Below, piece by piece: positions 17,848-53,191 of a stretch of DNA of 64,000 nucleotides. Both the position numbers and the translations under genes were made by a program. Source of the stretch: an uncultured bacterium (GTDB lineage Bacteria > Patescibacteriota > JABMPQ01 > CAVVCK01); NCBI GenBank assembly GCA_963746775.1, contig CAVVCK010000002.1:431656-495655 (forward strand). The letters run 5' to 3'. Under the pieces are notes generated by a model that saw only the letters and a list, made by a program, of their open reading frames with translations, had not been told where the DNA came from and did no database searches. How positions within the stretch are numbered: position 1 is the first letter of the stretch; each line of letters starts with the position of its first letter.

Positions 17848-18246
17848 TTATATATTGTTTATCGTTTTTTTTAATTCTACTAAAACCTCATCAACTACTT
17901 TTTCTACCTTATTTATATCTTCTCTAGTAGTTTTTGCTTTAAGCCCAAAATCTTTACTTTGAAACTCCTTAGCACATGCCTCAATGTCTGCTTGAATTTC
18001 TTCTGAAATATCTAATTCCCCCCTTTTGGCATAATCTAATATTACAGCCAAACCACCCGTTACAGCAGTAAACCATCCTTTTTGTAATTTGTATCTTGTT
18101 TGAGAAGTATCAGAATGAACAATTTTTCCCGGATCTTCATCGCTCCACATTTTCAACCTTTCTAACATTGGTATAATCTTAGTTCTTATAGCCTCTGGAA
18201 TCTTATTTGATAAATCAGGATTTTCTTCAAATCTTCTCTCGGTCAT
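17848..18246 (-). CDS. Hypothetical protein (132 aa), translationally coupled between ackA and the glucokinase
   Basis: ATGA overlap with the ackA stop, and it abuts the glucokinase start. No family recognised. Confidence 0.6.
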   Translation of the reverse strand: MTERRFEENPDLSNKIPEAIRTKIIPMLERLKMWSDEDPGKIVHSDTSQTRYKLQKGWFTAVTGGLAVILDYAKRGELDISEEIQADIEACAKEFQSKDFGLKAKTTREDINKVEKVVDEVLVELKKTINNI

Positions 18247-19310: not shown

Positions 19311-19447
19311 TTATTTCTTAATTAATCGATTTTTTAATTATAACATAAATCTTGTCTTAAAAAAAGAAAATACCGATATTTTAGCTTAATATAGGCATTT
19401 ATAGTAATATAACTATTATAAAAAATTTATTCCCTAATTTAAAAATT

Positions 19448-19726
19448 CTAAAAACTTCTTTCTTCGAATACTTCTTTTTTCAATTCTTCTATCTGCCTAA
19501 ATAATTCTTTGGCTTCTTCTACTGATAATTCTCCCTTGACCTGCCTTGCAATAATCTTTTGTCTTAAAGAAATAAAATATTCTCTCCCAAAAGCTTCTTT
19601 TCCTTTATTTGGATCTTGTTTTCTAAGTTCTTCTAACACCTTAGACATTTTGTCTTGTGTTTTAGCTCTCTTTAATTTTTCTTCTGCCAAATTTATTACT
19701 TCTGCTCCTTCTGATCTCTCATTCAT
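19448..19726 (-). CDS. Hypothetical helical protein (92 aa)
   Basis: ORF only. Charged, coiled-coil-like composition. Confidence 0.45.
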   Translation of the reverse strand: MNERSEGAEVINLAEEKLKRAKTQDKMSKVLEELRKQDPNKGKEAFGREYFISLRQKIIARQVKGELSVEEAKELFRQIEELKKEVFEERSF

Positions 19727-19730
19727 ATTT

Positions 19731-20312
19731 TTATATTATTAATTTCCCATAATCCCCTAGCCCTACATCAGCTGCATTCCCCTCATCCGTATCCATTTGA
19801 AAAGATAAACTGAATTTAGGGTGAATACGCACAATAACATCTTTAAAAATTAAAGCACGAGAACCAGTTATCTCCACTGATACTCTCTGCTTAGCTTCCA
19901 ATCCAAATTGCTTTGCTTCATCTGGAGATATATGTATATGACGCATAGCACAAATCAATCCTTTATCTAATTTTATTTCTCCTTTTGGACCTTTTACTAA
20001 TATGCCAGGTGTACCAATAATATCACCAGATACTCTGACCGGTGGAATATCGCCTAGTTTTCTGCCATCAGTTATAGAAACTTCTACCTGACTAAATAGA
20101 CGGCAGGGTCCAATCACCCTGACATTTTTAATTTCTCCCTTGGGACCAACTATATCAACTACCTCTTTAGATGCATATTGTCCTGGCTGAGATAATTCTT
20201 TTAGCGGTGATATTTTATATCCTTTGCCAAAAAGCTTCTCAACATTTTCCTGAGTTAAGTGGATATGGCGAGCAGATATTTCGACGGGAACTTTGTTGTA
20301 TGTATTTTTCAT
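19731..20312 (-). CDS. pduL: Phosphate acyltransferase PduL (PTAC family)
   Basis: VPVEISARHIHLTQENVEKLFG...LSQPGQYA...VRVIGP...QVEVSITD...RHIHISPDEA...DTDEGNAA. Confidence 0.85.
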   Translation of the reverse strand: MKNTYNKVPVEISARHIHLTQENVEKLFGKGYKISPLKELSQPGQYASKEVVDIVGPKGEIKNVRVIGPCRLFSQVEVSITDGRKLGDIPPVRVSGDIIGTPGILVKGPKGEIKLDKGLICAMRHIHISPDEAKQFGLEAKQRVSVEITGSRALIFKDVIVRIHPKFSLSFQMDTDEGNAADVGLGDYGKLII

Positions 20313-20355
20313 ATTTTTTTCGTAGGAGCAAAACAGTGTTCTACTCCTACATTAG

Positions 20356-21912
20356 TTATATATATTCTAAAAGATTTGTCCCCGTCATCTCTTCCGGCTT
20401 ATCTAATCCCATCAAACTCAATACGGTAGTCGTCACATCAGTTAAAATCCCAATAGGTAATAATAAACTTAAATCTTCCAACTTGCCTTGCCCTTTTTTA
20501 TTATTTGAAATAGCTATAAAAGGCACCGGATTTACCGTATGCTCTTTATTTATTTCGCCATTTATCAAATTAATCATAATATCAGCATTACCATGATCGG
20601 CAGTAATTATGACATTGCCATCTTTTTCTAAAATTTTTGGCATAACTTTACTCAAACACTTGTCTATCGTCTCTATACCTTTTATGGCTGCCTGTAAATT
20701 TCCGGTATGACCTACCATATCTGAATTAGCATAATTAATTAGGGTAAAATCATGTTCTCCTTTTTCTATATCTTCTAAAACTTTATCCGTTACTTCTAAA
20801 GCACTCATTTCTGGCTTCTTATCATATGAATCTACTTGTGGTGAAGGAATTAACATTCTATCTTCACCCTTAAATGGATCAATACGACCACAGTTAAAAA
20901 AAACAGTTACATGGGCATATTTTTCTGTTTCAGCAATACGTAATTGTTTTAAATTATTTTTACTCACCACTTCACCTAAAACATTATTTATTTTGTTTTC
21001 TGTAAATACAATTTTTACTGGCAAGCCTTCGTCATATTTAGTCATGCAGACAAAATATAGATTAGGGATTAGTTCCCTCTTAAATCCATCAAACTCCGGA
21101 GAAGTTATGGCTCTGGTTATTTGTTTGGCTCTGTCAGACCGGAAATTAAAAAATATTACCGCATCATTAGCTGATATTTTACCGTCAACTCCTTTTATTA
21201 CTACCGGCTCTAGCTCTTCATCATAAATATTTCTTTTATAAGAATCTTCTATGGCTTCTTTAGTGTTTTTACTCTCTCTGCCTTCTCCTAAAACCATAAC
21301 GCGATAAGCTTTCTCTACTCTCTCCCACCTATTATCACGATCTAAAGCATAAAACCTACCAGAAATTGTAGCAATTTTACCAACTCTTAATTTTTTAATT
21401 TTTTGCTCTAGCTCTAAAATAAAATCTTTGGCAGAATCTTTGGGCGTATCACGGCCATCAGTAAAAGCATGAATATAAACGTTCCTAACTTTTTCCTTTT
21501 TTGCTAATTCTAAAAGTGCATATAAATGTCTGCTGTGGCTATGAACCCCGCCAGGACTTACTAATCCCATTAGGTGTAAAGAAGAGTTATTTTTTTTAAC
21601 ATGCTCAATAGCACCTATTAAAGCTTTATTGGTAAAAAAAGACTTATCTTGAATAGCTTTATCTATTTTAGGCAATTCTTGATACATTACCCTACCTGAT
21701 CCCAAGTTCATATGCCCCACTTCCGAATTGCCAAATTCAAATTTAGGCAAGCCTACTTCTTCTCCGGAAGCTTGTAATAAAGCATGTGGGTAATCGCGAA
21801 TCAGGCTATCAAAAAAAGGCTTTTTGGCTCGAGCTACCGCATTTCCTTCGTGCATGGGAGCTATGCCAAAGCCATCTAGAACTATTAAGATTGTAGGTTT
21901 AATATTTGACAA
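20356..21912 (-). CDS. gpmI: 2,3-bisphosphoglycerate-independent phosphoglycerate mutase (TTG start)
   Basis: 518 aa. ILIVLDGFG, NSEVGHMNLGSGR, ADHGNA. Confidence 0.92.
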   Translation of the reverse strand: MSNIKPTILIVLDGFGIAPMHEGNAVARAKKPFFDSLIRDYPHALLQASGEEVGLPKFEFGNSEVGHMNLGSGRVMYQELPKIDKAIQDKSFFTNKALIGAIEHVKKNNSSLHLMGLVSPGGVHSHSRHLYALLELAKKEKVRNVYIHAFTDGRDTPKDSAKDFILELEQKIKKLRVGKIATISGRFYALDRDNRWERVEKAYRVMVLGEGRESKNTKEAIEDSYKRNIYDEELEPVVIKGVDGKISANDAVIFFNFRSDRAKQITRAITSPEFDGFKRELIPNLYFVCMTKYDEGLPVKIVFTENKINNVLGEVVSKNNLKQLRIAETEKYAHVTVFFNCGRIDPFKGEDRMLIPSPQVDSYDKKPEMSALEVTDKVLEDIEKGEHDFTLINYANSDMVGHTGNLQAAIKGIETIDKCLSKVMPKILEKDGNVIITADHGNADIMINLINGEINKEHTVNPVPFIAISNNKKGQGKLEDLSLLLPIGILTDVTTTVLSLMGLDKPEEMTGTNLLEYI

Positions 21913-21953
21913 TATGTTTATTTTATGATTTTATTAAATTACAGGAGGTAAAA

Positions 21954-22079
21954 GTGGCGAAGATATATTACTCAAAACAAAAGGCCGAGAGAAGAGGGGC
22001 TGCTGCTGGATTAGCAATAGGAATTTTTTTCTTTTTATTTTTGTTAATAGCACTAACACCTAACCACTTGTTCTTTTAG
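21954..22079 (+). CDS. Candidate 41-aa single-TM peptide (below the ORF-track threshold)
   Basis: AGGAGG at 21943-21948, 5 nt before the GTG. Peptide is VAKIYYSKQKAERRGAAAGLAIGIFFFLFLLIALTPNHLFF. Followed by hairpins at 22078-22104 and 22143-22168. Confidence 0.35.
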   Translation: MAKIYYSKQKAERRGAAAGLAIGIFFFLFLLIALTPNHLFF

Positions 22080-22142
22080 AGAGTTTGTATGTCAATTACT
22101 CTCTTAAAATCAGAAAACATAATTATTTGTGTTTTGTGGTTT

Positions 22143-22168
22143 ATCCCCCACCATTTATGGTGGGGGAT
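22143..22168. terminator. Intrinsic terminator ATCCCCCACCA ttta TGGTGGGGGAT
   Basis: 11-bp GC-rich stem with T-runs on both sides. Follows the eno stop. Confidence 0.8.
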
Positions 22169-22172
22169 TTTA

Positions 22173-23432
22173 TTATTTTAGCAGATTCTCAATTTCCATT
22201 AACCTATTATACTTAGCAATTCTTTCTCCTCTTGATAATGATCCCGTTTTTATAAATCCTGCTCCGGTACCAACTGCAAGGTCAGATATAAAAGTATCAG
22301 TGGTCTCCCCTGATCTGTGAGATATAATTGCTTTAAAACCAGCATCAAAAGCTTTTTTAATACACTGCAGAGTTTCAGTTACAGATCCAATTTGATTTAA
22401 TTTTATTAAAATAGAATTGGCTAATTTTTTCTCAATTCCCATCTCCAACCTCTTCATATTGGTAACAAATAAATCATCACCAACAATTTGAATTTTGTCA
22501 CCCAATCTTTTCGTCACCTTCTGCCAACCTTCGAAATCATCTTCATCCAAAGGATCTTCTATAGATAAAAATGGATATTTTTCAACCCAATCAGCATACA
22601 TTAAAACTAATTGTTCTGCATCTAGAGTTTTATCTTGAGCTTTAAAGTAATAATTTTTAGACTCCTTCTTATAAAATTCAGAAGCGGCAGCATCTATAGC
22701 TAGCATAATATCACTACCTGCCTTGTATCCTGCTTTTTCAATTGCTTCTATTATATATCCAAGAGCTTGATCATTATTTTCTAGGCTAGGAGCATAACCA
22801 CCTTCATCACCTACAGTTGTAGTATAGCCTGCTTGTTTTAAAATTTTACCTAAACTATGAAATACCTCAGCGCCTTGTCTTAGGCGCTCAGCAAAAGACT
22901 CTGCTTGAGGCATAATCATATATTCCTGAATATCTAAACCTGAATCAGCATGTGCTCCTCCATTAACAATATTCATTTGAGGATAAGGAAGACTATATTC
23001 AGCACTACCACCTATTTTTTCAAAATTCTCTTTTACATATTCATAGGGCTCTAGTCCTTTTGATTTGGCAACTGCATTAAATATAGCTAGCGATACTCCC
23101 AGGATTGCATTGGCGCCTAGCTCGGATTTGTTTTCTGTCCCATCTAAATCTATCATTATTTTATCTACCTGTGCATGATCTGAAACATCTTGGTTTATCA
23201 ATGCTTTTAATATTTTTGTATTTACATTTTCACAAGCTTTAAGTGTTCCCTTGCCACCATATCTATTGGAATCACCATCACGAAGTTCTAGGGCTTCATG
23301 AGTACCCGTAGATGCGCCTGATGGTACTAAACCTAAACCTTCCGTTCCGTCTTCTAGTATAGCTTTTACTTCTACAGTTGGATTGCCGCGTGAATCTAAG
23401 ATTTCACGAGCTTTTAATGTTTTTAATTTCAT
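22173..23432 (-). CDS. eno: Enolase
   Basis: 419 aa. [21 protein letters not shown]. Confidence 0.95.
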
Positions 23433-23452
23433 TATGTTTTATATTAATTTAT

Positions 23453-23513
23453 GTAGTACCAACCCCTCCTGGTTGGTTTTCTAAACATACCAGCCTAAAG
23501 AGGCTGGTACTAC
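23453..23513. terminator. Composite hairpin between pgk and eno: two stem-loops enclosed by an outer helix
   Basis: ACCAACC/GGTTGGT (23458-23477), TACCAGCCT/AGGCTGGTA (23488-23509), outer GTAGTACC/GGTACTAC. Confidence 0.55.
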
Positions 23514-23517
23514 TTTT

Positions 23518-24699
23518 TTATTTATCATTCAAGGCTGCAATTCCTGGTAGTTCCTTCCCTTCCAAAAACTCCAACATCGCTCCGCCACCAGTCGATACAA
23601 AGGTTAATTTTTCCTCTAAACCTAAGCTTCTAACCAAATCAAGTGTCTCCCCCCCACCAATAATACTTTTAGCATTGCTGTTTGCTACAGCCTGGGCTAT
23701 TTCATAAGAACCTTTGGCAAATTCTGGAACTTCAAAAAGCCCCATGGGACCATTCCAAATTACCATATTTGAATAATTTATAATTTCTTTATATTGAGCA
23801 ATGGTCTTTGGTCCAATATCTAGAATCATTTCAAAGTCTTTTAAATCTGTCCCATTTGAAATCCTAGATTTAGCGTTTTCATTTGGACTGCTAGCTACAA
23901 TATAATCTTGAGGCATATATAATTTATTCTCCCCTTCTTCTAGATATGGTAATAATTTTTTTGCCTCAAATGCCATTTCTCTCTCTACTTTAGATTTGCC
24001 AACATTCTGTCCTTTTTCTATAAGAATATTATTAACCAAAGCTCCACCTAATAAAACTTTCTCTGCTAGCTCTAATAATTTTTCAATAACTTTAATTTTA
24101 GTAGAAATTTTAGCTCCACCTATTAAACAAACCAAAGGATGTTCCGGATTTCTTAAAATATTAGATAAATTATTAATTTCTTCTTCCATTAATAATCCGG
24201 CTACAGCTGGTATAAATTTTGTTACTCCTTCAGTTGAAGCATGAGCCCGATGAGCTGTCCCAAAGGCATCATTAACATAAATATCAGCTAAGCTTGCTAG
24301 TTTCTTGGCAAATTCTGGATTATTTTCTTCTTCCTCAGCATGAAATCTTAAATTTTCTAGTAAAACAATGTCTCCTTTCTGCATACCGGCTACCTCAGTT
24401 TCTACTTCTTCTCCGATACAATCACTTAACATTAGAACTGATTCATTTAGTAAGGTTGATAAATATCTGGCTACTGGTTCTAATCTTAATTCTTCTACTA
24501 TTTTTCCTTTTGGTTTTCCTAAATGAGACATTAAAATAATTCTGGCTCCTTGTTCTATTAAATATTTAATAGTAGGTAATGCTTTTACAATTCTAGTATC
24601 ATCACTTACTTTTCCCTCCGAGGTTAGAGGCACATTAAAATCCACACGCATTAATACTTTTTTGCCCCTAATGTCGATGTCTTTTATTGTTTTTTTCAT
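23518..24699 (-). CDS. pgk: Phosphoglycerate kinase
   Basis: 393 aa. RVDFNVP, GGAKISTKI, STGGGA. Confidence 0.95.
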   Translation of the reverse strand: MKKTIKDIDIRGKKVLMRVDFNVPLTSEGKVSDDTRIVKALPTIKYLIEQGARIILMSHLGKPKGKIVEELRLEPVARYLSTLLNESVLMLSDCIGEEVETEVAGMQKGDIVLLENLRFHAEEEENNPEFAKKLASLADIYVNDAFGTAHRAHASTEGVTKFIPAVAGLLMEEEINNLSNILRNPEHPLVCLIGGAKISTKIKVIEKLLELAEKVLLGGALVNNILIEKGQNVGKSKVEREMAFEAKKLLPYLEEGENKLYMPQDYIVASSPNENAKSRISNGTDLKDFEMILDIGPKTIAQYKEIINYSNMVIWNGPMGLFEVPEFAKGSYEIAQAVANSNAKSIIGGGETLDLVRSLGLEEKLTFVSTGGGAMLEFLEGKELPGIAALNDK

Positions 24700-24764: not shown

Positions 24765-25019
24765 CTACATTCCTTCAATCTCTTTTATTTTAACATAAGG
24801 ACCGCTAATTTGGCTAATTTCTACTTTAGAACCGCTCAAAACTGTCCCTTTACTTAATAATTTAATATTAAATTTCAAATTAGAAGGTAGAATAGTTTCT
24901 CCATGCTCAGAAATTTTTCCCAAGCCAATTTTAATATTAGTAATTTTTTTTAAGCCATTTTTTCTGGCATACTCTTTTATATCCCGAACTATTTTGTCTG
25001 CTGCATGTAGGTCGTGCAT
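24765..25019 (-). CDS. HypA-like nickel metallochaperone lacking the zinc-ribbon domain (84 aa)
   Basis: Starts MHD (compare the MHE Ni site). The alignable HypA core runs up to EISQISG...VKIKEIE. No CxxC pairs anywhere. Confidence 0.6.
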   Translation of the reverse strand: MHDLHAADKIVRDIKEYARKNGLKKITNIKIGLGKISEHGETILPSNLKFNIKLLSKGTVLSGSKVEISQISGPYVKIKEIEGM

Positions 25020-25060: not shown

Positions 25061-25429
25061 TTATTTTTTATTATCTATACTTTTTCCTAAAGTTTTCAGT
25101 TCTGTCCAAAGCATAACACCTATTTCATCGGCTAATTTTAAAGCAATAATGTAATCTTCTTTTTTTATATAATTCTCATTTAAAGAGAAATAGAGAAGGT
25201 ACTTAGACTCTTTTAATGATCCATAAGATATTTCAAGAAAATTCAACTGGACAGCTCTTTTCCTTCTAGCAAAACCTTCAATATAATTAAGTATCACCGA
25301 GAGTAATGATCTTCTTATCTATGAAACAACTCCATATAATTCTGCCTTTGGATATCCCCTGGTTAATTTATACATTGAATGAACATATTCATCCATTTTT
25401 AATTTTAACTCATCTTGAAACTTAGGCAT
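25061..25429 (-). pseudogene. Four-helix-bundle protein gene (23S rRNA IVS / Avd-like family) interrupted by one in-frame TAG at 25319..25321
   Basis: Own translation: MPKFQDELKLKMDEYVHSMYKLTRGYPKAELYGVVS*IRRSLLSVILNYIEGFARRKRAVQLNFLEISYGSLKESKYLL... The track shows only the 78-aa distal part (GTG start). Confidence 0.75.
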
Positions 25430-25466: not shown

Positions 25467-26735
25467 TTAATGTACCGAACACGTAATACAAGGATCATAA
25501 GCTCTGATCATCATTTTTATTTTCCTTGTTCTTTCTTCTTCTGTCAAATTTAGAACTCTTGATAAATATTGTTCTAAATCTCTTTCCATATTAGATATTA
25601 GTTGCGCTGTTGGTGTAATAATATTTAGTTTAGTAATCTTTCCCTTGCTACTTATTCCATAGGCATGATAAAGCGTTCCCCGAGGCGCTTCTATCGCTCC
25701 TACTCCGTAGCCTTCTTTCACTTTATAATCTGTAGCTATATTTTTCAAATCTGATTTTAAAACTTTTTCTAATAATTTTATACTTTCTTCAATACTATCA
25801 ATAATTTCAATCATTTGCGCTAAAATATTGTAAAAAGAATTACAAGAAGGCAATATAATACCCGATTTTTTTAATAATTTTTGCGCTTCTCTGTTTAATT
25901 TTTCATGATTAATATTAAGCCGGGCCAGTGCCCCTACCATAATTTCTTTATCGTTTTTCTTAACCCTCTTAACTGCTTCATAGGGCAATTGAATTTCTTC
26001 TATATTATTTTCAAATTTATCTGGTGAAATATTTAATCCTTTCGTTGATACTACGCTACCATCATATATTGAATATTCCTTTTTATTGCTCAAAGCTACA
26101 TATTCCGTCTCCCGACTAAAGCCTGGATATTTTAATTTGCTAAAAAATTCTCCTAGAATTGCAGCTTCTTTTAATATCTGACCACTTTGTTTTAGTAATT
26201 TCTCTACTTTAGATCGATTTGGTGCTACTCTAAAACCTCCTATTTTGCCAGACACAGGATGTATTGATCTTCCACCAAAAACATGAATCAGCTCATTACC
26301 ATATTCTCTAATGGACAAAGCTAGCTTAGTATATTCTGGAAATTGTTTAATTAAAGTAGAAGCTTCTGAAATATCAAAGAAATCTGATAGAGATAAAAAA
26401 TAAATATGCAGTGTATGGCTTTGAATAAATTGGCCCAGCATTAAAATTTTACGCATTATAACTGCATCTTCGGGAATTTTAACGTCTAAAGCTGATTCAA
26501 CGGCTTTTAGCGCAGTTAAGTAGTGAACAACCGGACATACTCCGCAAATACGAGCTGAAATATTAGCTGCTTCTTCAAAATTCCTGCCTACCATTATTCT
26601 CTCAAAAAGCCTAATGCCCATTATTACTTCAAAGCGAGCTTTTTGAACATTACCATTAACAATATCACCAATAAATCCAGCATGGCCTTCAATTTTGTCT
26701 ATTTGATTAATTTTAATTGTTCTTTTATTACTCAT
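25467..26735 (-). CDS. [NiFe]-hydrogenase large subunit, group 3b-like (alpha)
   Basis: 422 aa. N-terminal RICGVCPVVH and C-terminal DPCITCSVH-stop. Confidence 0.9.
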   Translation of the reverse strand: MSNKRTIKINQIDKIEGHAGFIGDIVNGNVQKARFEVIMGIRLFERIMVGRNFEEAANISARICGVCPVVHYLTALKAVESALDVKIPEDAVIMRKILMLGQFIQSHTLHIYFLSLSDFFDISEASTLIKQFPEYTKLALSIREYGNELIHVFGGRSIHPVSGKIGGFRVAPNRSKVEKLLKQSGQILKEAAILGEFFSKLKYPGFSRETEYVALSNKKEYSIYDGSVVSTKGLNISPDKFENNIEEIQLPYEAVKRVKKNDKEIMVGALARLNINHEKLNREAQKLLKKSGIILPSCNSFYNILAQMIEIIDSIEESIKLLEKVLKSDLKNIATDYKVKEGYGVGAIEAPRGTLYHAYGISSKGKITKLNIITPTAQLISNMERDLEQYLSRVLNLTEEERTRKIKMMIRAYDPCITCSVH

Positions 26736-27478
26736 TGTTTTTTTAATTTTTCAATTTTTACTCCATAAACTTCCATCATTTCATAAATCTCTTTCTCACT
26801 CACCCTATCTTTCAATGCTTTAATTATATTTTCCCAGTTAGCCTCTTTCAAAAATCCTCTACAACCATAGCACTCTAACCCACCAGATAAACAAGCAGCA
26901 CCACATCCTCCAGCTGTAGCCGGTCCCAAGCATGGCTTTCCTTCTTGTAATAAGCATTTATAACCATTTATTTGGCACTCATAACAAACTGGCCTTTGGA
27001 TATTCTTAGGATTACGGCCAGCTAGCAGCATATATACTATTCTCAAGAAATCTTTATTATCAATAGGACAGCCCAGCACTTCATAATCAACTTTAACGAC
27101 TTCTTTAACTGATTCTACTTTATAATCTTCCACTTCCTTTGGTCTTTCGTAAACAAATTTAGGCTTCACTAATTTAGGATGATAATTTTTCATTTTCTGC
27201 ACTCCCCCATGAGTAGCGCAAGTACCCAGCGCTATTAAAATCTTACTTCGTCCGCGAATACTTTTTAAAAATTTAAATTGTTCATCTAATAATGGAGTAC
27301 CTTCTACAAAGACAATATCATAGTTGCCTTCCTCGGGTAGTTCTTCAATCAAATGAAATTCTGCCAAATCAATTCTTTTAGTTAATTCTAAAAATTTCTC
27401 ACCTAAATCTAGGATAGCAAATTCACATCCCTCACAGCATGTTAAGCTTACTATCCCTACTTTTGGTTTCTTAGTCAT
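26732..27478 (-). CDS. [NiFe]-hydrogenase small subunit, group 3b-like (delta)
   Basis: 248 aa. VSLTCCEGCEF, GTCATHGG, Cys-rich C-terminus. ATGA overlap with the large subunit. Confidence 0.85.
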   Translation of the reverse strand: MTKKPKVGIVSLTCCEGCEFAILDLGEKFLELTKRIDLAEFHLIEELPEEGNYDIVFVEGTPLLDEQFKFLKSIRGRSKILIALGTCATHGGVQKMKNYHPKLVKPKFVYERPKEVEDYKVESVKEVVKVDYEVLGCPIDNKDFLRIVYMLLAGRNPKNIQRPVCYECQINGYKCLLQEGKPCLGPATAGGCGAACLSGGLECYGCRGFLKEANWENIIKALKDRVSEKEIYEMMEVYGVKIEKLKKQ

Positions 27479-27510: not shown

Positions 27511-27870
27511 TTATTTTGAATCTTTGATATTTTTTATTTCAGTCCAAAGCAGAGCACCTATTTCATCTGCTAATTCCATTCCCTTTTTATATTGATTTTC
27601 GTTAATAAATCCTTCCATTAAAGAAAAATGTAAAAGATATTTAGTTTCTTTCAATAATCCATACGACATCATTGAAAAATTTCTCTGATTACCCTTATTA
27701 AATCTTGCAAAACCTTCTATATAATTAAGTATTACTGACAATGAAACTCGTTTAAGTTAAGAAACTATACCGAATAATTCTTCTTTTGGAAAATTGTATG
27801 ATATCTTATAGCAATAATGAGCATATTGATCCATTTTCTTTTTCAATATTTCTCTATAATTCTCTTTCAT
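27511..27870 (-). pseudogene. Second four-helix-bundle protein gene interrupted by one in-frame TAA at 27757..27759
   Basis: Own translation: MKENYREILKKKMDQYAHYCYKISYNFPKEELFGIVS*LKRVSLSVILNYIEGFARFNKGNQRNF... The track shows only the 76-aa distal part (TTG start). Confidence 0.75.
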
Positions 27871-27905: not shown

Positions 27906-28652
27906 TTATAATCCTATATTCGCCAACCCTACACTATACCCATTCCACTTATTCAAATTCATCACTTGCAAATCACTCAACTTATCACAAGCCCAAAACC
28001 AGTGCATGGAGACAAAGTCTCCTATTTTTATATTTTCAATAAACTTCTTATTATTAAATTTAAAATATATATCTTTATTTTCTAAATTTCCAAAGATAAA
28101 CTGATTATCTTTAAATATTAAAGGCCTATATTTTATTTCTAATTTTCCAGATTTTATTTTTAAAACACGTGTAGGCAATATTAAACATTCATTAATAGTC
28201 TCCAAAGTATGCTCTACTGGATAATAACCTGTTCGCTTGGGAATATTCAGCACATGAAAGCTATGATGAGGCTTCGCTCCCATCGGAATCTTACCAATTA
28301 CCTTCTCTGCCATTTTCATTTTAAACTTTTTCTTCAAGTTCTGCTTATCAATCAAATAACTATAGAAATTATTCATAGAAACATTATTCAGAAGATCATT
28401 CCCTATCCAATAAGCTTCACTAACTTTAGAATTAAGTGGATCTGAAATATGACTAGCATCAGCAATTAATTTTAAATAAGGATACATAGTCTGAAATTCA
28501 GCTAAAATCTCTTCTAACCCTTTATCTTGCTGATTCTGAGATACATATTCAAAAAGATTGCTATTCTTATCACCTCCGCAATACTGCAGCTTATTAGGAC
28601 TAAAGGCATAACGAGCTGCAATCAACATTCCATTATACGATAGGTTTTCCAT
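27906..28652 (-). CDS. Hypothetical 248-aa protein with a C-terminal HypC/HupF-like domain
   Basis: Residues about 155-240, ECLILPTRVLKIKSGKLEIKY...IKIGDFVSMHWFWACDKLS, parallel the local HypC MCLTYPAKILKIKGEIALIQ...LKVGDYILHNANLAIKKV. Confidence 0.6.
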   Translation of the reverse strand: MENLSYNGMLIAARYAFSPNKLQYCGGDKNSNLFEYVSQNQQDKGLEEILAEFQTMYPYLKLIADASHISDPLNSKVSEAYWIGNDLLNNVSMNNFYSYLIDKQNLKKKFKMKMAEKVIGKIPMGAKPHHSFHVLNIPKRTGYYPVEHTLETINECLILPTRVLKIKSGKLEIKYRPLIFKDNQFIFGNLENKDIYFKFNNKKFIENIKIGDFVSMHWFWACDKLSDLQVMNLNKWNGYSVGLANIGL

Positions 28653-29553
28653 GTAATTGTTTTTGATCTTCTAGTTTCTCTCTAAATTTCCAAAACAAAA
28701 CTACTCCCACTAAAATTATTAACGCTCCCAATATTTTATCTAACGACAATTTATGAGTTACAAAAGTAGCGTTTAAAAATGTTGTAATTGGTGAAGCTAA
28801 TACTAAAACCGAAGCTGTCACCGTCACTGGCAATTTCTTCAAAGCACTATACCAAGTAATTACATACCCGCCTAAAAATAGTGAGACCAATAATATCCAA
28901 GCCATTTGATTAGAGCTTAAATCTAGCAAACCTCCCATATTCCCTGTAAATAATAAAAATAAAACTAAAATAATTGATCCAAAAAACATTCTGCCCCAAG
29001 CTAGGACCATCGAATCAATATTCTTTAGAGCAATTTTGGCAATAATATTTTCCGCAGCCCATAAAAGCGTGGCTATCAATATTAAAATTTCAGCGTACCC
29101 GAATTTCAGTCCAGAAAAGCCTTCAAAAATTACATTGCCTGTTAATAAAATTCCCAAAGCTATAAATTGCAATTTACTTAGCTTCTCTTTTAAAATCGGA
29201 AAGGCTAGGATAGCCACCCAAATAAATAAAGTTTTATGTATAAATGAGGCAGATACTGGAGAGGTAAGGCTTAAGCCTTGGAAAAACAATAAAAAAGGAA
29301 CGCTGCCACCTATTAAGCCTATTAAGCTTAATTTCAGCCAGTCTTTTTTACTTAATAATTTTAATTTCTTAAAAATAAAAGGAGTTAGAACTATTAATGT
29401 CAAAAATAGAGCAACTACTACATTTTTCAAGGTCGTATATTGAAAAGCATTTTTACCTAAAGCCTGCATGCCAAATTTATTAAAAAAATTGGCTAAGCCA
29501 GAGATGACGGCCGTTGCTAGGACTAAATAGAATCCTTTTTGAATATTGATCAT
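28633..29553 (-). CDS. EamA/DMT-superfamily transporter
   Basis: 306 aa, about 10 TM helices, two-repeat architecture. Confidence 0.7.
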   Translation of the reverse strand: MINIQKGFYLVLATAVISGLANFFNKFGMQALGKNAFQYTTLKNVVVALFLTLIVLTPFIFKKLKLLSKKDWLKLSLIGLIGGSVPFLLFFQGLSLTSPVSASFIHKTLFIWVAILAFPILKEKLSKLQFIALGILLTGNVIFEGFSGLKFGYAEILILIATLLWAAENIIAKIALKNIDSMVLAWGRMFFGSIILVLFLLFTGNMGGLLDLSSNQMAWILLVSLFLGGYVITWYSALKKLPVTVTASVLVLASPITTFLNATFVTHKLSLDKILGALIILVGVVLFWKFREKLEDQKQLHGKPIV

Positions 29554-29729: not shown

Positions 29730-29936
29730 TTATTTATTACTAAAAATATCCATAATTTCCTCAGCCTCTTTCCTGAAAACCTTTTTTATAGCCAAATTAG
29801 CATTATGTAAAATGTAATCTCCCACTTTAAGATTTTTTAACATACTAATATTAACTTCTAATTTATTCTTTTTATCTTGAATTAGAGCTATTTCTCCTTT
29901 AATTTTTAATATTTTAGCAGGATAGGTTAGACACAT
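29730..29936 (-). CDS. hypC: Hydrogenase maturation chaperone HypC
   Basis: 68 aa. MCLTYPAKI N-terminus and VGDYIL motif. Confidence 0.85.
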   Translation of the reverse strand: MCLTYPAKILKIKGEIALIQDKKNKLEVNISMLKNLKVGDYILHNANLAIKKVFRKEAEEIMDIFSNK

Positions 29937-29937
29937 T

Positions 29938-32232
29938 TTATTCTTCTTTTAGTTTATATAAGTAATATTCTCCTTCATGGGCTACTAGATCCATGTGTTT
30001 GTTTTTAAATTTTATCACCCTTTTGTAATTATCTAAAGTAAAATTAGCATATTCTTGTGAGCCATTTTCTTGTTTAGCCCACAATATTCTTTCCGAAATA
30101 TTTTCCGTATACCCTCTCCAAATAAAATATCTTATGTTAAAATTTTTTAATACTCGGATAACATGTTCCTCAGTATTATTTTTTAATAAATAACTAATAT
30201 ATAATAAATAATGATCTTGTATATAACGGTTATTAGAGTTATCTATATAATAACCCCTTGCTTGATCTAATCCCCAAATCATTTCTTTATTATCTAAATT
30301 ATTATTTAAATATTCTGACATTAAATACAATTTATCTCTCGATATACTCGGATCTGGTGAATATAGAGACATATAATTTATTCTTTTGTTAAATTGTAAA
30401 TTTCCAATTGTAATTATCCAGATCGATAAGAATGTATATAAAAATAATTTTAGGTATTTATTTCTTGTAAAAAATATTTGACTCAATAAAACAAAAAATA
30501 AAACATACAATGAAATAGCATACCAGATAACAACATGTCCTATATAAACCCAACCGAAATATAGAATAATAGTAGCAAACAATAGTAAAATAAATTCCCT
30601 TTTCAATTTCCTATAAAATATATTCTTTATATAATAAAATATTATAACTGGAGCAAAAAGAATAAATGTAAAACCTATGTTTAACGCATCAGAAATATAT
30701 TTTTTATTTCCTATATAAGTAATATCAAAAGGTATATTTAAAAAATAACTCAAATCCTTTTTTTGTTTATCATCCCATATCAAGTAAGCTTCATTTCTCA
30801 TCTCATTAACTATATATTTTTGTGAATCTCGACCTAAAGTATCATAAAAAGATTGTTTTGAAGCTAACTTCTCACTTAAAATTGGGTCAATCGGGTTACC
30901 GCTAAATTTAATATTTCTGACAAACCATGGCAACATAAAAATAAATATTATTAATCCCCAAATAAAAAAATATTTTACTTTTATTTTATTTCTAATTATT
31001 TGTACTAGAAAAAATATTACCAACGGAACAATATACCATGTTAGAAAAAAATATTTTAACCCGGCCGCGATACCACAGAAAACACTAAAAATAATTAAGT
31101 CTTTTATTTTTCTTTTTTTTAGATAGTTTATAAAAGAACAATAACTGATCAATGTATAAAAAACAAAAATCATTTCTATTTTATGGTCTTCTAAATTTTG
31201 AAAAAATATTACAGGCAATGTTAAATAGGCAATAATAGCATAAACGCCACCCTTTAATTTATTTTTTCTAAAGAAATAATAAATGCATAAAACAATTAAT
31301 AAAGTAAAAATAAAAATAAGCGCTAAAGTTATTTGGAAGTTAAAAAGTAAATATCCTAAAGTAAATAACATTTCTCCATTTTGAGGAAAACCATAATAAA
31401 TCCAATAAGGAAAATTTACTATCCCATGATTCTCAACGAAAATCTTAGGATAAGTTAAATAGGAAATGAAAGCATCAAAACCAGAAGGAAATTGCTGAAA
31501 TATACCCGAAATATCAATTCCTAAAATCACAGGAATAATTAAAAAAATACCTTTTCCAAATAAAGTTAATTTTTTGAGTTCATAAAAATTATTTTTATCT
31601 TTAAAATAAGTCCACAATTCTATAATTTCTTTATAAGTAACAAAGGTTACAATAATCATTAAAACATAAGCAATAATTCTATAATATAAACCAAACATTC
31701 CTAAAAAATACACAATAAACATTAAAGCACCAAATCCTAGAGCACAAGAAAATAAAAACTTTTCTAAAAAAAAGCTAGTTTTATATTTAAATATTTTTAA
31801 TGTTTTACAACCTAAAGAAAAAGATATTAAAAATATCCAGGAAACTAAAATAATAGTAATTATATCATTACCAATAACGCCTAAATTATAAGAAGATCTA
31901 GCATAAATCCAGATAATCCATAAAAATGTAAAAAAATATAAAGACAAAGGCAAATAATATACAGGTATTTTTAAATCATTTATCTTATTTTTAAGTCCTT
32001 TTCTGCTTATTGACATAAAGTCTTTAATTTTTTTGCTTGGCCAAAAAATAATTAAAACTATTTTAAACAAAGCTAAAATATTAGCTATAAGTAAAGCAAA
32101 AGTAACAAACAAAGCTACTGATGATATAAATGCTTCTCCATAGTTAGGAAAACTATAAAAATAATAAACTATTACAACAATTCCCCACATCAGGAATAAT
32201 CCTGCAAAAATTTTTGAATAATATTTTTTCAT
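29938..32232 (-). CDS. Large polytopic membrane protein (764 aa), possibly a GT-C-type glycosyltransferase
   Basis: More than 14 hydrophobic segments followed by a soluble C-terminal domain. The function call is by architecture only. Confidence 0.4.
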   Translation of the reverse strand: MKKYYSKIFAGLFLMWGIVVIVYYFYSFPNYGEAFISSVALFVTFALLIANILALFKIVLIIFWPSKKIKDFMSISRKGLKNKINDLKIPVYYLPLSLYFFTFLWIIWIYARSSYNLGVIGNDIITIILVSWIFLISFSLGCKTLKIFKYKTSFFLEKFLFSCALGFGALMFIVYFLGMFGLYYRIIAYVLMIIVTFVTYKEIIELWTYFKDKNNFYELKKLTLFGKGIFLIIPVILGIDISGIFQQFPSGFDAFISYLTYPKIFVENHGIVNFPYWIYYGFPQNGEMLFTLGYLLFNFQITLALIFIFTLLIVLCIYYFFRKNKLKGGVYAIIAYLTLPVIFFQNLEDHKIEMIFVFYTLISYCSFINYLKKRKIKDLIIFSVFCGIAAGLKYFFLTWYIVPLVIFFLVQIIRNKIKVKYFFIWGLIIFIFMLPWFVRNIKFSGNPIDPILSEKLASKQSFYDTLGRDSQKYIVNEMRNEAYLIWDDKQKKDLSYFLNIPFDITYIGNKKYISDALNIGFTFILFAPVIIFYYIKNIFYRKLKREFILLLFATIILYFGWVYIGHVVIWYAISLYVLFFVLLSQIFFTRNKYLKLFLYTFLSIWIITIGNLQFNKRINYMSLYSPDPSISRDKLYLMSEYLNNNLDNKEMIWGLDQARGYYIDNSNNRYIQDHYLLYISYLLKNNTEEHVIRVLKNFNIRYFIWRGYTENISERILWAKQENGSQEYANFTLDNYKRVIKFKNKHMDLVAHEGEYYLYKLKEE

Positions 32233-32299: not shown

Positions 32300-33124
32300 T
32301 TAAATCACCCCCTCAATCCCTCTCAACTGCTCCCAACTAAATACCGGCCCATCCTTACAGACATAATAAGGACCAACAGCACAATGTTCACATACCCCAA
32401 TACCACATTCCATACGACGCTCCAGGGATAAATAAATATTTTCATCTTGAAAACCTTTTTCTTTTAATTTATCTATGACAAATTTACACATAATGGGCGG
32501 CCCGCAAACTAAGGCTACACCAGAAGCATCTGTTTCTTGCTGATCAAATAAAGCTGTGATTAAACCTATATTACATTTTACTCCTGAAATATTTTCTTCC
32601 CTACCTTTATCCAAAGTAATACTTATTTCTATATTCTTGCACCAATCATCAATTTCATCTTTAAATATTAATTCCTCCTTATCCCTGGCTCCATAAAATA
32701 CCTGCATATTGCTAGATTTGGCGCTACAATAGGACTTAATTAGGGATCTAAAGGGAATAATGCCAATTCCACCAGCAACAATTAAAACTTTTTTATTATT
32801 AATTTTATCTATTGGCCAACCATTGCCATAAGGTCCTCTAATGCCAACTGTATCACCTACTTTCATAGTGTGCATTCTCTTAGTCAATTCTCCCACTTTA
32901 CGGATACAAATCTCTATATATTTTTTATCATAAATAGATCCACAATAAGCAAAAGGAGCTTCATTAAAACCAGGAATGGATAACTCTAAAATTTGCCCCG
33001 GACTAAACTGAAAATTTTTTCTATATTTTCTATTTTCAAATCTTAATTTATAGAGATTGATAGTATCGTTTTCCTTCTTTATACTTATTATTTTTGCTTT
33101 TTCTGTTTGGTATTGGTTTTGCAT
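32300..33124 (-). CDS. Hydrogenase gamma subunit (FAD/NAD(P)-binding, 2Fe-2S; HydG/AsrB-like)
   Basis: 274 aa. GGIGIIPF and the C-terminal CGIGVCEHCAVG cluster. Confidence 0.8.
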   Translation of the reverse strand: MQNQYQTEKAKIISIKKENDTINLYKLRFENRKYRKNFQFSPGQILELSIPGFNEAPFAYCGSIYDKKYIEICIRKVGELTKRMHTMKVGDTVGIRGPYGNGWPIDKINNKKVLIVAGGIGIIPFRSLIKSYCSAKSSNMQVFYGARDKEELIFKDEIDDWCKNIEISITLDKGREENISGVKCNIGLITALFDQQETDASGVALVCGPPIMCKFVIDKLKEKGFQDENIYLSLERRMECGIGVCEHCAVGPYYVCKDGPVFSWEQLRGIEGVI

Positions 33125-33710: not shown

Positions 33711-34688
33711 TTATTTATCCTCTAAAATCTCCTTCAAAACCTCGCTTATTTCAATCCCCACCGGACAAACTCTAGAACACCTCCCACAACCCACACAACC
33801 GGAAATACCAAATTTATCAGGAGTTCTGACAAATTTGTGGGTATACCAATAATATATTCTTTCCTCGGTAGAATTTAAAAATTTATGATTACCGGCCACT
33901 TCTGAAAATTCATGATAAAAACAAGCATCCCAACATCGAACTCTCTCACCTTCGTCTTCTTCTAAACTCGGCCTATCATCTATTCTAAAACAATAGCAAG
34001 TAGGACAAGCTAGGGTACATTTACCACATTCTATACATCTCTTACCCAGCTCTTCCCATACTTTCTTATTATATCCTTTTTTCATTTTCTCTCTAATTTT
34101 CAACATTATAGGATCTTGGCCTTCCTCTTTTATTGGTCCTGCAAACTGAATATGATTATAATTCCTATAACCAAATTCTTCTAGTATTCTCTGCCCTTTT
34201 TCTGATCCGGTGAATACTTCATACAAATCTCCATGCTTTTCTAAAAATATATCAAATCGAACATGCTCCAAAATATGTTCTTCAAAATTTTCTAAGAATA
34301 TTTTAAAAGATTTACTATCTTTATTATTTGAACTACCTTGACCAATAACTATAATATTTCTCCTTCTCGTTTGATAATTTAAATCTTTTTCAAAAACATG
34401 GTCATACAAATTTAGAGCTTTTAAATCAAAAATGGTCATACCCAAAGCTATGGTTGGTTTCAGATTAAGTTTACCCTCTTCCAAATTACTACCCTTATAT
34501 TTAAATAAAGTTTCACACGGGGGTAGAAATAATTTTTTAAAATTTTTTCTGGCAACGGCGCCATTTAAAACAATATCTTGATAATCTTTGACATAGCCTA
34601 AGTCAAGGCCATCAGGTGCAAGTGGGGCGTATATTTTATGGGTTTCTAATAAATATTTTATTAGCTCTTTTAATTTTGTTTTTGTCAT
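33711..34688 (-). CDS. Hydrogenase beta subunit (4Fe-4S; HydB/AsrA-like)
   Basis: 325 aa. CIECGKCTLACPTCYC and CVGCGRCSRVCP. Confidence 0.8.
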   Translation of the reverse strand: MTKTKLKELIKYLLETHKIYAPLAPDGLDLGYVKDYQDIVLNGAVARKNFKKLFLPPCETLFKYKGSNLEEGKLNLKPTIALGMTIFDLKALNLYDHVFEKDLNYQTRRRNIIVIGQGSSNNKDSKSFKIFLENFEEHILEHVRFDIFLEKHGDLYEVFTGSEKGQRILEEFGYRNYNHIQFAGPIKEEGQDPIMLKIREKMKKGYNKKVWEELGKRCIECGKCTLACPTCYCFRIDDRPSLEEDEGERVRCWDACFYHEFSEVAGNHKFLNSTEERIYYWYTHKFVRTPDKFGISGCVGCGRCSRVCPVGIEISEVLKEILEDK

Positions 34689-52861: not shown

Positions 52862-53191
52862 TTAGAAATCATCATCTAGATCTTCATATAGATATTGGGT
52901 TTCATTTTTTAAATCTTCATCAGTAGAATCGCCTGTTAAAAAATGATCATCTAGATTTTTTTCCTCTTCATTTTGACTAGCGTGCCAAATAGCTATATCT
53001 TTATTGATTTTCTCTACTAATTCTTCTTTAGACATTTCTCCTATAAAAACATTTTCTGAATTAGAGACTATTTTCTTATATTCCTTAATATCCATTAATA
53101 CATATGAGGGTTTACCTTCTTCTACAATAATATACTTACCACTAGAATTTTTTAATAGATCAATAATTTCGGAAAAATCTTTTGAATTCAT
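52862..53191 (-). CDS. Hypothetical acidic 109-aa protein between fusA and tuf. The N-terminal third resembles Phd/YefM-type antitoxin folds.
   Basis: SGKYIIVEEGKPSYVLMDIKEYKKI, then an acidic tail ending YEDLDDDF. Confidence 0.55.
   Translation of the reverse strand: MNSKDFSEIIDLLKNSSGKYIIVEEGKPSYVLMDIKEYKKIVSNSENVFIGEMSKEELVEKINKDIAIWHASQNEEEKNLDDHFLTGDSTDEDLKNETQYLYEDLDDDF

What the first reader, a model, noticed from the sequence alone, without database searches (positions are those of the whole stretch)
25467..26735. NiFe-hydrogenase large subunit ends exactly at the processing histidine (DPCITCSVH-stop)
The ORF stops immediately after the His of the C-terminal DPCxxCxxH motif (stop codon 25467-25469). 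There is no C-terminal peptide for a HycI/HybD-type endopeptidase to remove, and no such protease gene is in the locus.

Extension-less large subunits are known for some sensory and Ech-type enzymes. For a four-subunit group-3b-like enzyme this suggests a simplified maturation route. That matches the minimal accessory set seen here: hypC, a zinc-less hypA, and no hypB/D/E/F within 64 kb.
Basis: partly seen in the sequence, partly recalled or inferred. Interest (0 to 1): 0.45.

Follow-up and report, generated by a model that had tools for sequence, protein, structure and literature searches.

The report
Tail-less CPR group-3b hydrogenase subunit
The hydrogenase catalytic subunit really does end at the histidine where other enzymes are cut, but every close relative in the tiny-celled Patescibacteria (CPR) does too, so it is normal for its clade, which has also lost the cutting protease.

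Summary
ORF 25467..26735 (-) encodes a 422-aa [NiFe]-hydrogenase large subunit ending ...DPCITCSVH, followed by TAA.

It is not an error and not peculiar to this gene. All 120 nearest database homologues (46-100% identity, named ones all Patescibacteria/CPR) end at the same His. In a rough tree the window sits in a pure tail-less clade of 64 sequences. More distant group-3b enzymes carry 4-24-residue tails.

Tail and protease co-vary. None of 18 tail-less loci has a HycI/HybD-like gene within about 10 kb, against 42 of 56 tailed loci (p = 6e-9).

In the CPR clade, a HypA-like protein of 79-91 aa lies downstream of the large subunit. It lacks the zinc finger.

The window has no HypB/D/E/F. However, three other tail-less CPR loci carry hypC-D-E next to the hydrogenase (two also a hypF-like ORF). 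So "simplified maturation" is supported only for the proteolytic step and perhaps for nickel delivery.

DUF6390 (27906..28652) has a HypC-like C-terminal domain. In 9 of the 18 fetched hyd1-type CPR loci, and at one hyd2-type locus, it lies in the hydrogenase cluster, nearly always next to an EamA transporter gene.

The two maturation papers checked list extension-less groups 2b, 2d, 4c, 4e and 4g, not 3b. Interest is modest.

The parts
25467..26735 (-). [NiFe]-hydrogenase large (alpha) subunit, group 3b-like, CPR 'hyd1' type. 422 aa, ending at the L2-motif His (CAT 25472-25470) followed directly by TAA (25469-25467).
   Evidence: PF00374; best NCBIfam models ShyA 272.8 bits and HydA 242 bits; best PDB match P. 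furiosus SHI alpha, E 6e-65, aligned through to His424.
26732..27478 (-). Hydrogenase small (delta) subunit, 248 aa. Its stop overlaps the large-subunit start.
   Evidence: PF01058 Oxidored_q6. (ShyD 166.7 bits, HydD 162 bits). The length matches the hyd1-type mean of about 250 aa in Jaffe et al. 2020 (PMC7304191).
24765..25019 (-). HypA-like nickel chaperone, 84 aa. It keeps an N-terminal MHD motif but has no cysteine. The zinc-finger module of about 34 aa is cleanly absent, and a short EHGE insertion is present.
   Evidence: HypA N-terminal 70 residues only; 13 of 13 CPR loci: 79-91 aa, no CxxC; alignment A5.
27906..28652 (-). DUF6390 protein, 248 aa. It has an N-terminal helical domain with invariant C25, H129, H130 and H133, plus a C-terminal HypC-like OB-fold domain. 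Invariant C156 aligns on the essential Cys2 of HypC. Candidate CPR-specific hydrogenase accessory protein.
28633..29553 (-). EamA-family (drug/metabolite transporter) membrane protein. It is the neighbour of DUF6390 in nearly all DUF6390-bearing CPR hydrogenase clusters (not in L167).
   Evidence: PF00892. Co-occurrence.
29730..29936 (-). HypC/HupF-family chaperone, 68 aa, with the essential N-terminal Cys (MCLTYP...).
   Evidence: (PF01455, E 1.4e-16).
32300..33124 (-). Gamma (diaphorase) subunit, 274 aa, with FAD-binding, NAD-binding and DHODB-type Fe-S domains.
   Evidence: homologous to the gamma subunit in nearly all 3b loci (E 1e-44 to 1e-191).
33711..34688 (-). Beta subunit, 325 aa, with a Fer4_22 4Fe-4S dicluster domain.
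   Evidence: PF17179, E 3.8e-32..

Best explanation
This is an intact catalytic subunit of the Patescibacteria (CPR)-specific four-subunit group-3b [NiFe]-hydrogenase, the 'hyd1' type of Jaffe et al. 2020. It is made in its final length. An ancestor of this whole clade lost both the short C-terminal extension and the HycI/HybD-type endopeptidase that removes it.

Maturation therefore has no proteolytic checkpoint, as in the naturally extension-less groups 2b, 2d, 4c, 4e and 4g. The proposed sequence is as follows. The Fe(CN)2CO unit is delivered by HypC, presumably from HypD/E/F encoded elsewhere in the genome. Nickel is delivered by a zinc-finger-less HypA encoded downstream of the large subunit. 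The active site then closes without cleavage and the small subunit docks. A CPR-specific protein with a HypC-like domain (DUF6390) and its EamA partner probably assist.

The enzyme sits inside a glycolysis and acetate-fermentation gene cluster. That fits a role in disposing of, or exchanging, NAD(P)H reducing equivalents as H2.

Shown here: the sequence end, its conservation across the clade, the co-variation of tail and protease, the accessory gene content, and the HypC-like fold of DUF6390. Inferred: the order of maturation steps, the roles of HypA-like and DUF6390, and the physiological direction of the enzyme.
For: - The ORF ends at His followed by TAA, with all four ligand Cys intact.
- It is 3b-like by best matches: ShyA/HydA and P. 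furiosus and T. kodakarensis 3b structures, whose precursors are 428 aa with His424, a 4-aa tail.
- All 120 nearest homologues end at the His.
- Among 136 diverse 50%-identity representatives that retain the L2 motif, 42 are tail-less and cluster with the query. The rest carry tails of 4-24 aa or a fused protease domain.
- In the NJ tree the window lies in a pure tail-less clade of 64 tips that contains every hyd1-type CPR locus in the tree. The root state is tailed.
- Among loci with at least 700 bp of downstream sequence, 0 of 18 tail-less loci have a protease-like gene, against 42 of 56 tailed loci (Fisher p = 6.5e-9). In 33 of those 42 the protease gene lies immediately downstream.
- Within CPR, the hyd2-type locus L084 keeps a 7-aa tail and a protease-like ORF.
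- A Zn-less HypA is downstream of the large subunit in all 13 CPR loci that contain a HypA-like ORF, and in 4 further loci.
- hypC-D-E are adjacent in tail-less CPR loci L003, L004 and L022, with a hypF-like ORF in L003 and L004.
- The cluster is conserved, including in the 88%-identical relative L002.
- The CPR-specific 3b clades are described in PMC7304191.
Against: - No biochemical data exist for any member of the clade. Whether the protein carries a NiFe(CN)2CO site is assumed from conserved ligands.
- HypD/E/F, HypB and a protease could not be looked for in the rest of this genome (547-kb contig).
- The tree is a simple neighbour-joining tree without support values.
- A distant, unrecognised protease family cannot be excluded by homology searches.
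- Removing the extension genetically from the group-3d soluble hydrogenase of R. eutropha gave nickel-free enzyme (Massanz 1997, cited in PMC7294309). Extension-free maturation in group 3 is therefore not self-evident.
Confidence: 0.85

Rival explanations
1. The stop after His is a sequencing or assembly error, or a recent nonsense mutation that truncated a normal short extension.
For: Archaeal 3b enzymes have only a 4-aa tail, so a single base change could remove it. This window does contain nonsense-interrupted genes (the two IVP ORFs).
Against: All 120 nearest homologues from independent assemblies end at the same His, including proteins at 82-88% identity. The downstream in-frame sequence (AKITR, then a stop) resembles no known tail such as FLxVxF or VVRL. 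No protease gene is nearby.
Confidence: 0.01
2. Reduced or alternative maturation. Lineages with the DUF6390-type cluster, including this genome, lack HypD/E/F and HypB altogether. They would assemble or acquire the NiFe site by a non-canonical route, using HypC, DUF6390 and the Zn-less HypA, or cofactor or protein supplied by a host.
For: No HypB/D/E/F were found in the 64-kb window or within about 10 kb in eight other DUF6390-type hyd1 loci (L002, L010-L012, L083, L165-L167). The loci that do have adjacent hypD-E (L003, L004, L022) lack DUF6390. DUF6390 has invariant Cys and His residues and a HypC-like domain. CPR bacteria have reduced genomes and depend on hosts.
Against: A canonical HypC with its N-terminal Cys is retained, and HypC is known to work with HypD. 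HypD is abundant in Patescibacteria. Hyp genes are often unlinked from structural genes. Only about 20-64 kb per genome was inspected. DUF6390 also accompanies the tailed, protease-linked hyd2-type enzyme in L084, so it is not a substitute tied to tail loss.
Confidence: 0.1
3. The locus encodes a degenerate hydrogenase-like protein that no longer binds Ni-Fe, in the way Ehr or NuoD-like relatives do not. A maturation signal would then be irrelevant.
For: A few clade members have altered L2 motifs, such as DLCISCAVH, or end in K or Q instead of H. The hyp set in view is incomplete.
Against: In this ORF, and in 117 of 120 homologues, the full L1 and L2 motifs and all four Cys are conserved. Thirty-one positions are invariant across 39 diverse members, including E16, R352, D414 and P415. 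Dedicated hypC and hypA-like genes are retained in the cluster in every hyd1-type locus examined where the flanks allow.
Confidence: 0.04

Closest known systems
Group 3b [NiFe]-hydrogenase / sulfhydrogenase of Thermococcales (P. furiosus SHI HydA, SHII ShyA; T. kodakarensis HyhL; PDB 9e15, 9nez, 5yxy)
   Same: Same four-subunit architecture (alpha, delta, beta, gamma). Same L1 and L2 motifs. Full-length alignment runs to the terminal His. Cytosolic, NAD(P)-linked diaphorase module.
   Different: The archaeal precursors carry a 4-residue tail (428 aa, His424). From my own recollection of the literature, not checked here, that tail is removed by a HybD/HycI-type protease. The window protein has no tail and no protease gene nearby. 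Scores are far below the NCBIfam equivalog cut-offs (272.8 against 700). HypA lacks the zinc finger. The CPR cluster adds DUF6390 and EamA.
CPR-specific group-3b clade 'hyd1' (Jaffe et al. 2020, BMC Biol, PMC7304191)
   Same: The nearest homologues that carry a source name are all from Patescibacteria. The small subunit is about 250 aa. Beta and gamma subunits and a HypC-like family are co-located.
   Different: Nothing differs in kind; the window enzyme is a member. In a term search of that paper, 'maturation' and 'C-terminal' do not occur.
Naturally extension-less [NiFe]-hydrogenases: groups 2b and 2d (H2 sensors such as R. eutropha HoxC), 4c (CooH), 4e (Ech) and 4g
   Same: The large subunit is synthesised ending at the L2 His or Arg, with no dedicated endopeptidase. 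RH is loaded by the canonical Hyp machinery (PMC7294309 and PMC12134894).
   Different: These belong to different groups with different partners and functions. Group 3b is not listed among extension-less groups in either paper. In the group-3d SH, artificial removal of the tail blocked Ni insertion.
HypC/HupF/HybG chaperones (PF01455; PDB 2z1c, 2ot2), as comparator for DUF6390
   Different: In DUF6390 the cysteine is internal (C156), following a conserved domain of about 155 residues that has its own invariant Cys and His. In HypC the cysteine must be the N-terminal residue.

Membership tests
[NiFe]-hydrogenase large subunit, group 3b | L1 (RxCGxCxxxH) and L2 (DPCxxCxxH) motifs supplying four Cys ligands | tested here: met
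   RICGVCPVVH at residues 62-71 and DPCITCSVH at 414-422. These are invariant in alignment A1.
[NiFe]-hydrogenase large subunit, group 3b | Closest to characterised 3b enzymes rather than to 3a, 3c, 3d or groups 1, 2 and 4 | tested here: met
   NCBIfam scores: ShyA 272.8 and HydA 242 bits, against VhuA 168 and FrhA 153. PDB scores: SHI alpha 223 bits, against Mvh 180, Frh 150 and 3d 125. All scores are below the equivalog cut-offs, so this is a divergent subgroup.
[NiFe]-hydrogenase large subunit, group 3b | Heterotetramer with small subunit, FeS beta subunit and FAD/NAD gamma subunit | tested here: met
   The genes are at 26732..27478, 33711..34688 and 32300..33124. The same set occurs in relatives.
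[NiFe]-hydrogenase large subunit, group 3b | Formal HydDB classification; NAD(P)-linked H2 or sulfhydrogenase activity | not testable with these tools
   HydDB is not available here and no biochemistry is possible.
CPR-specific 3b clade hyd1 (Jaffe 2020) | Falls in the CPR-only clade; full-length small subunit (~250 aa); beta and gamma co-located | tested here: met
   Among the top 120 homologues, every source name given is Patescibacteria. The NJ clade contains every hyd1-type CPR locus in the tree. The small subunit is 248 aa.
Naturally extension-less [NiFe]-hydrogenases | Primary translation product ends at the L2 His or Arg | tested here: met
Naturally extension-less [NiFe]-hydrogenases | No cognate HycI/HybD/HoxW-type endopeptidase | tested here: inconclusive
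   None in the 64-kb window, and none in 18 of 18 tail-less loci. The rest of the genome could not be inspected.
Naturally extension-less [NiFe]-hydrogenases | Cofactor still inserted by the canonical Hyp machinery | tested here: inconclusive
   HypC and a HypA-like gene are present. HypB/D/E/F are absent from the window. hypC-D-E are adjacent in tail-less CPR loci L003, L004 and L022.
HypA nickel metallochaperone (for ORF 24765..25019) | N-terminal Met-His-Glu nickel-binding motif | tested here: met
   MHD in the window and in 13 of 13 CPR loci (Glu to Asp). M1 and H2 are invariant in alignment A5.
HypA nickel metallochaperone (for ORF 24765..25019) | Structural zinc site formed by two CxxC motifs | tested here: not met
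   The ORF has no cysteine, and the ~34-residue module is absent in the alignment. It is best called a HypA-like nickel-domain-only protein.
HypC/HupF family (for DUF6390 C-terminal domain) | OB-fold with conserved Cys and GDxVxxH motif | tested here: met
   [not shown]
HypC/HupF family (for DUF6390 C-terminal domain) | The essential Cys is the N-terminal residue of the mature protein | tested here: not met
   The aligned Cys is residue 156 of 248. DUF6390 contains a HypC-like domain but is not a HypC.

The most novel reading that the evidence does not exclude
CPR bacteria with the DUF6390-type cluster may mature their [NiFe] site by a reduced, partly non-canonical pathway. That pathway would have no endopeptidase and no HypB. 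Nickel would come from a zinc-finger-less HypA with a His/Glu-rich loop. A HypC-domain fusion protein (DUF6390), with its own conserved Cys/His site, would work with an EamA transporter, and HypD/E/F might be absent altogether. This would be the smallest known natural [NiFe] maturation set and a template for heterologous hydrogenase production.
Probability: 0.1. Interest if true: 0.75.

Novelty: new variant of a known kind. Interest (0 to 1): 0.35.

Why it matters
The two maturation papers checked list the exceptions as groups 2b, 2d, 4c, 4e and 4g.

A large, conserved clade of soluble four-subunit group-3b enzymes also lacks both tail and protease, and a few smaller 3b lineages lack the tail too. 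The checkpoint has therefore been discarded repeatedly, even within group 3. That is notable because engineered removal of the tail from the group-3d SH blocked nickel insertion.

This clade offers a natural comparison set for asking what replaces the checkpoint. It also points to two untested accessory candidates: a zinc-less HypA and the HypC-like DUF6390. For this individual gene, however, the feature is simply the clade norm.

Tried and rejected
1. Sequencing error or recent truncation: rejected, because all 120 homologues end at His.

2. Stop-codon reassignment. This was prompted by in-frame TAG and TAA codons in the two IVP genes. If TAA were sense, the large subunit would gain a 20-aa tail ending at TGA. 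Rejected because TAA, TAG and TGA all close long ORFs (38, 8 and 4), no suppressor tRNA is in the window, and long genes are intact under table 11.

3. tblastn with E. coli Hyp seeds was too insensitive to find even the window's own hypA and hypC. I therefore added phmmer on all stop-to-stop ORFs and built an endopeptidase profile from 27 locus hits.

4. Locating the window's own contig: the look-up of encoding contigs has no record for P0001, and the cluster look-up gives no accession or name.

5. Genome-wide hyp inventory by matching the longest-contig length (547,535 or 1,051,561 bp) among HypD hits failed. The list is saturated, with 8000 hits and only 120 shown, none matching.

6. Literature searches found no paper that mentions the C-terminus or protease of CPR hydrogenases, and none on a zinc-less HypA.

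7. DUF6390 as a substitute specific to tail-less enzymes: rejected. It also accompanies the tailed, protease-linked hyd2-type enzyme in L084.

8. Strict coupling of zinc-less HypA to tail loss: rejected. L056 (Atrimonadaceae) has an 80-aa Cys-free HypA together with a tailed subunit and a protease.

Full report
**Observation**

The ORF at 25467..26735 on the minus strand encodes 422 residues. It ends ...RAYDPCITCSVH, with the His codon at 25472-25470 and TAA at 25469-25467. Its ATG overlaps the stop of the upstream small-subunit gene (26732..27478). The in-frame continuation is AKITR followed by another TAA.

The window is about 31% G+C and almost all genes are on the minus strand. It uses TAA, TAG and TGA as ordinary stops: 38, 8 and 4 for long frames.

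**What the protein is**

Pfam assigns the protein to PF00374. The best NCBIfam models are the alpha subunits of the two Pyrococcus sulfhydrogenases: ShyA at 272.8 bits and HydA at 242 bits. These score ahead of VhuA and FrhA, but all fall far below the equivalog cut-offs.

The best solved structures are P. furiosus SHI alpha and T. kodakarensis HyhL (E about 1e-63 to 1e-65). The alignment covers residues 7-422 of the query and ends at His424 of the 428-residue archaeal precursors. Thermococcales group-3b enzymes therefore carry a 4-residue tail, and the query has none.

The other three subunits of a 3b enzyme are present:
- delta, 26732..27478
- gamma with FAD, NAD and Fe-S domains, 32300..33124
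- beta with a Fer4_22 domain, 33711..34688

**Is the missing tail peculiar to this gene?**

It is not. Of the 120 best hits among 5.8 billion proteins (46-100% identity), every one that carries a source name is from Patescibacteria/CPR. All 120 end exactly at the His.

An exhaustive search of 50%-identity representatives gave 136 sequences that retain the L2 motif. Forty-two are tail-less, and these are the ones closest to the query. The more distant ones have tails of 4-24 residues, most often 7-9 residues of the FLxVxF type. A few have a fused domain of 134-202 residues, some of which look like the endopeptidase.

I built a neighbour-joining tree of 231 large subunits. The window falls in a pure tail-less clade of 64 tips that includes every hyd1-type CPR locus in the tree. 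The inferred root state is tailed. The minimum number of state changes is nine, with smaller tail-less groups in Anaerolineae/Thermodesulfovibrionales/Aerophobetes and in Actinomycetota. The tree is rough and has no support values.

**Co-variation with the protease**

I fetched 80 genomic loci around relatives. I searched all their ORFs with the window's proteins, with E. coli HypA-F and HycI (taken from NC_000913), and with an endopeptidase profile built from the first hits.

Among loci with at least 700 bp downstream of the large subunit, 0 of 18 tail-less loci contain a protease-like gene. Among tailed loci, 42 of 56 do (Fisher p = 6.5e-9). In 33 of those 42 the protease gene lies directly downstream or overlaps the large-subunit gene.

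The same rule holds inside the CPR. Locus L084 has a truncated 138-residue small subunit, the 'hyd2' type of Jaffe et al. It keeps a 7-residue tail (FLKVNWQ) and has a protease-like 122-residue ORF nearby.

The window itself has no hit to the protease profile or to HypB/D/E/F. The same queries score 1e-50 to 1e-160 in other loci. Pfam scans of most remaining ORFs found nothing related.

**Accessory genes**

A HypA-like ORF of 79-91 residues lies downstream of the large subunit in all 13 CPR loci that contain one, and in four more examined later. It keeps the N-terminal MH(D) nickel motif but has essentially no cysteine. The zinc-finger module of about 34 residues, with its two CxxC motifs, is cleanly absent. 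A His/Glu/Asp-rich insertion of 4-11 residues (EHGE; AHDGHEEHTED) is present instead. Full-length HypA with two CxxC motifs is found in the non-CPR tailed loci. One exception is L056, which has a Cys-free 80-residue HypA together with a tail and a protease.

HypC (29730..29936) has its essential N-terminal Cys. HypB was not seen near any CPR locus.

Tail-less CPR loci L003, L004 and L022 carry hypC-hypD-hypE beside the hydrogenase, and L003 and L004 also a hypF-like ORF. HypD is abundant in Patescibacteria. Loss of the tail therefore does not imply loss of the Fe(CN)2CO pathway. The absence of hypD/E/F from this 64-kb window cannot be extrapolated to the genome. I could not inspect the rest of the 547-kb contig.

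**A missed component: DUF6390**

The gene between hypC/EamA and the small subunit (27906..28652) belongs to DUF6390. This is a small family, with 384 hits that are almost all from Patescibacteria. Its alignment shows invariant C25, H129, H130, H133, C156, H217, W218 and C222.

DUF6390, nearly always next to an EamA transporter gene, sits inside the hydrogenase cluster in the window and in L002, L010, L011, L012, L083, L165, L166 and L167. That is 9 of the 18 hyd1-type CPR loci fetched; the others (L003-L009, L013, L022) lack it. It also sits next to the hyd2-type enzyme in L084. It is thus a strong candidate for a CPR-specific hydrogenase accessory protein, but it is not specific to tail-less enzymes.

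**Context**

In the 88%-identical relative L002 the gene order is: TIM, beta, (one gene), gamma, hypC, EamA, DUF6390, small, large, hypA-like, PGK, enolase, iPGM, PduL-type phosphotransacylase, acetate kinase, ROK glucokinase. The window has the same order.

The window also carries three insertions: a 764-residue PMT_2 glycosyltransferase between gamma and hypC, and two four-helix-bundle (PF05635) ORFs flanking the small-large pair. Embedding in glycolysis and acetate fermentation fits a fermentative redox-balancing role. That role is an inference.

**Comparison with the literature**

Jaffe et al. 2020 (PMC7304191) described CPR-specific monophyletic 3b clades, hyd1 and hyd2. The window enzyme matches hyd1. 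In a term search of that paper, 'maturation' and 'C-terminal' do not occur.

Hartmann et al. 2020 (PMC7294309) and a 2025 review (PMC12134894) list the naturally extension-less hydrogenases as groups 2b, 2d, 4c and 4e, and the former adds 4g. Neither lists 3b. The former also recalls that deleting the tail of the group-3d SH gave nickel-free enzyme. My searches found no paper that mentions the C-terminus or protease of CPR hydrogenases.

**Verdict**

The feature is ordinary for its clade, so the individual finding is of low surprise. At clade level, three things together form a coherent and apparently unremarked variant of a known phenomenon: loss of tail and protease in a whole four-subunit 3b lineage, a zinc-less HypA, and a HypC-domain protein.

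The "simplified maturation" reading is supported for the proteolytic step only. Whether nickel delivery and Fe(CN)2CO synthesis are also reduced in this genome remains open and needs a whole-genome inventory.

Noticed in passing
window 25061-25429 (-) and 27511-27870 (-): Two paralogous four-helix-bundle genes (PF05635, 23S-rRNA-IVP/Avd-like) flank the small-large hydrogenase pair. They are 53% identical in protein. Each has a single in-frame stop at the same alignment position: TAG near 25321-25319 in ...YGVVS*IRRS..., and TAA near 27762-27760 in ...FGIVS*LKRV.... This is the family's conserved Gln of the SQlRRA motif. In 79 of 80 metagenomic relatives the codon is CAA or CAG. Neither copy has any other stop or frameshift. 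Both copies are absent from the 88%-identical relative L002. No suppressor tRNA is in the window. Unexplained: parallel C-to-T nonsense mutations, a split gene, or read-through.
   Followed up: partly
[not shown]
   Followed up: yes
window 24765-25019 (-): HypA-like protein with the zinc-finger module deleted and a His/Glu-rich insertion (EHGE; up to AHDGHEEHTED in relatives). Conserved downstream of the large subunit in 17 of 17 hyd1-type CPR loci where that region was available. A similar Cys-free 80-aa HypA occurs in a non-CPR Atrimonadaceae locus (L056 11783-12049) that still has a tail and a protease.
   Followed up: partly
window 29938-32232 (-): A 764-aa multi-pass membrane protein with a PMT_2 glycosyltransferase domain is inserted between the gamma subunit and hypC. 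It is absent at this position in the close relative L002 and in the other CPR clusters.
   Followed up: no
window 16933-24699 and 34765-35550 (-): The hydrogenase cluster is embedded in a glycolysis and acetate-fermentation block: TIM, PGK, enolase, iPGM, PduL-type phosphate acyltransferase, acetate kinase and ROK glucokinase. The linkage to PGK, enolase and iPGM is conserved in L002, L083, L165, L166 and L167.
   Followed up: partly
L084 8732-10791: A CPR hyd2-type enzyme (small subunit only 138 aa, large subunit 435 aa) keeps a 7-aa tail (FLKVNWQ). A 122-aa ORF with no Pfam hit on record matches my endopeptidase profile (E 3e-6). Tail and protease therefore co-vary within the CPR as well.
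   Followed up: partly
proteins P0131, P0218, P0242, P0253, P0266: Group-3b large subunits whose tail continues into a 134-202-residue C-terminal domain. Some of these domains look like a fused HybD/HycI endopeptidase, which would put substrate and protease in one polypeptide.
   Followed up: no
proteins P0038, P0073, P0119, P0123, P0125, P0228: Tail-less clade members with an altered L2 motif: DLC instead of DPC, and in two cases a terminal K or Q instead of His (DLCIACAVK, GLCMSCAVQ). P0133, P0142 and P0153 carry an N-terminal extension of about 170 residues.
   Followed up: no
L165 15337-16701; L167 2124-3500: Diversity-generating-retroelement-like pairs (bAvd PF22296 plus reverse transcriptase RVT_1) lie within a few kb of the hydrogenase cluster in two CPR relatives. 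In L165 the pair sits between hypA and PGK, close to where the window has an Avd-like four-helix-bundle ORF.
   Followed up: no
L083 5756-6842; L165 7764-8838: A CbiM-type Ni/Co uptake gene lies inside the hydrogenase cluster, between gamma and hypC, in some CPR relatives. The window has instead a CorA-type transporter at 10011-10931 (-), about 15 kb away.
   Followed up: no
window 14489-15100 (-), 10936-11370 (-), 52862-53191 (-): Small mobile or defence-type genes: an IS200-like Y1 transposase, an RNase H / RVT_3 domain protein, and a weak Phd/YefM antitoxin-like match (24.9 bits, below the Pfam cut-off of 29.8) lying between ribosomal-protein operons.
   Followed up: no
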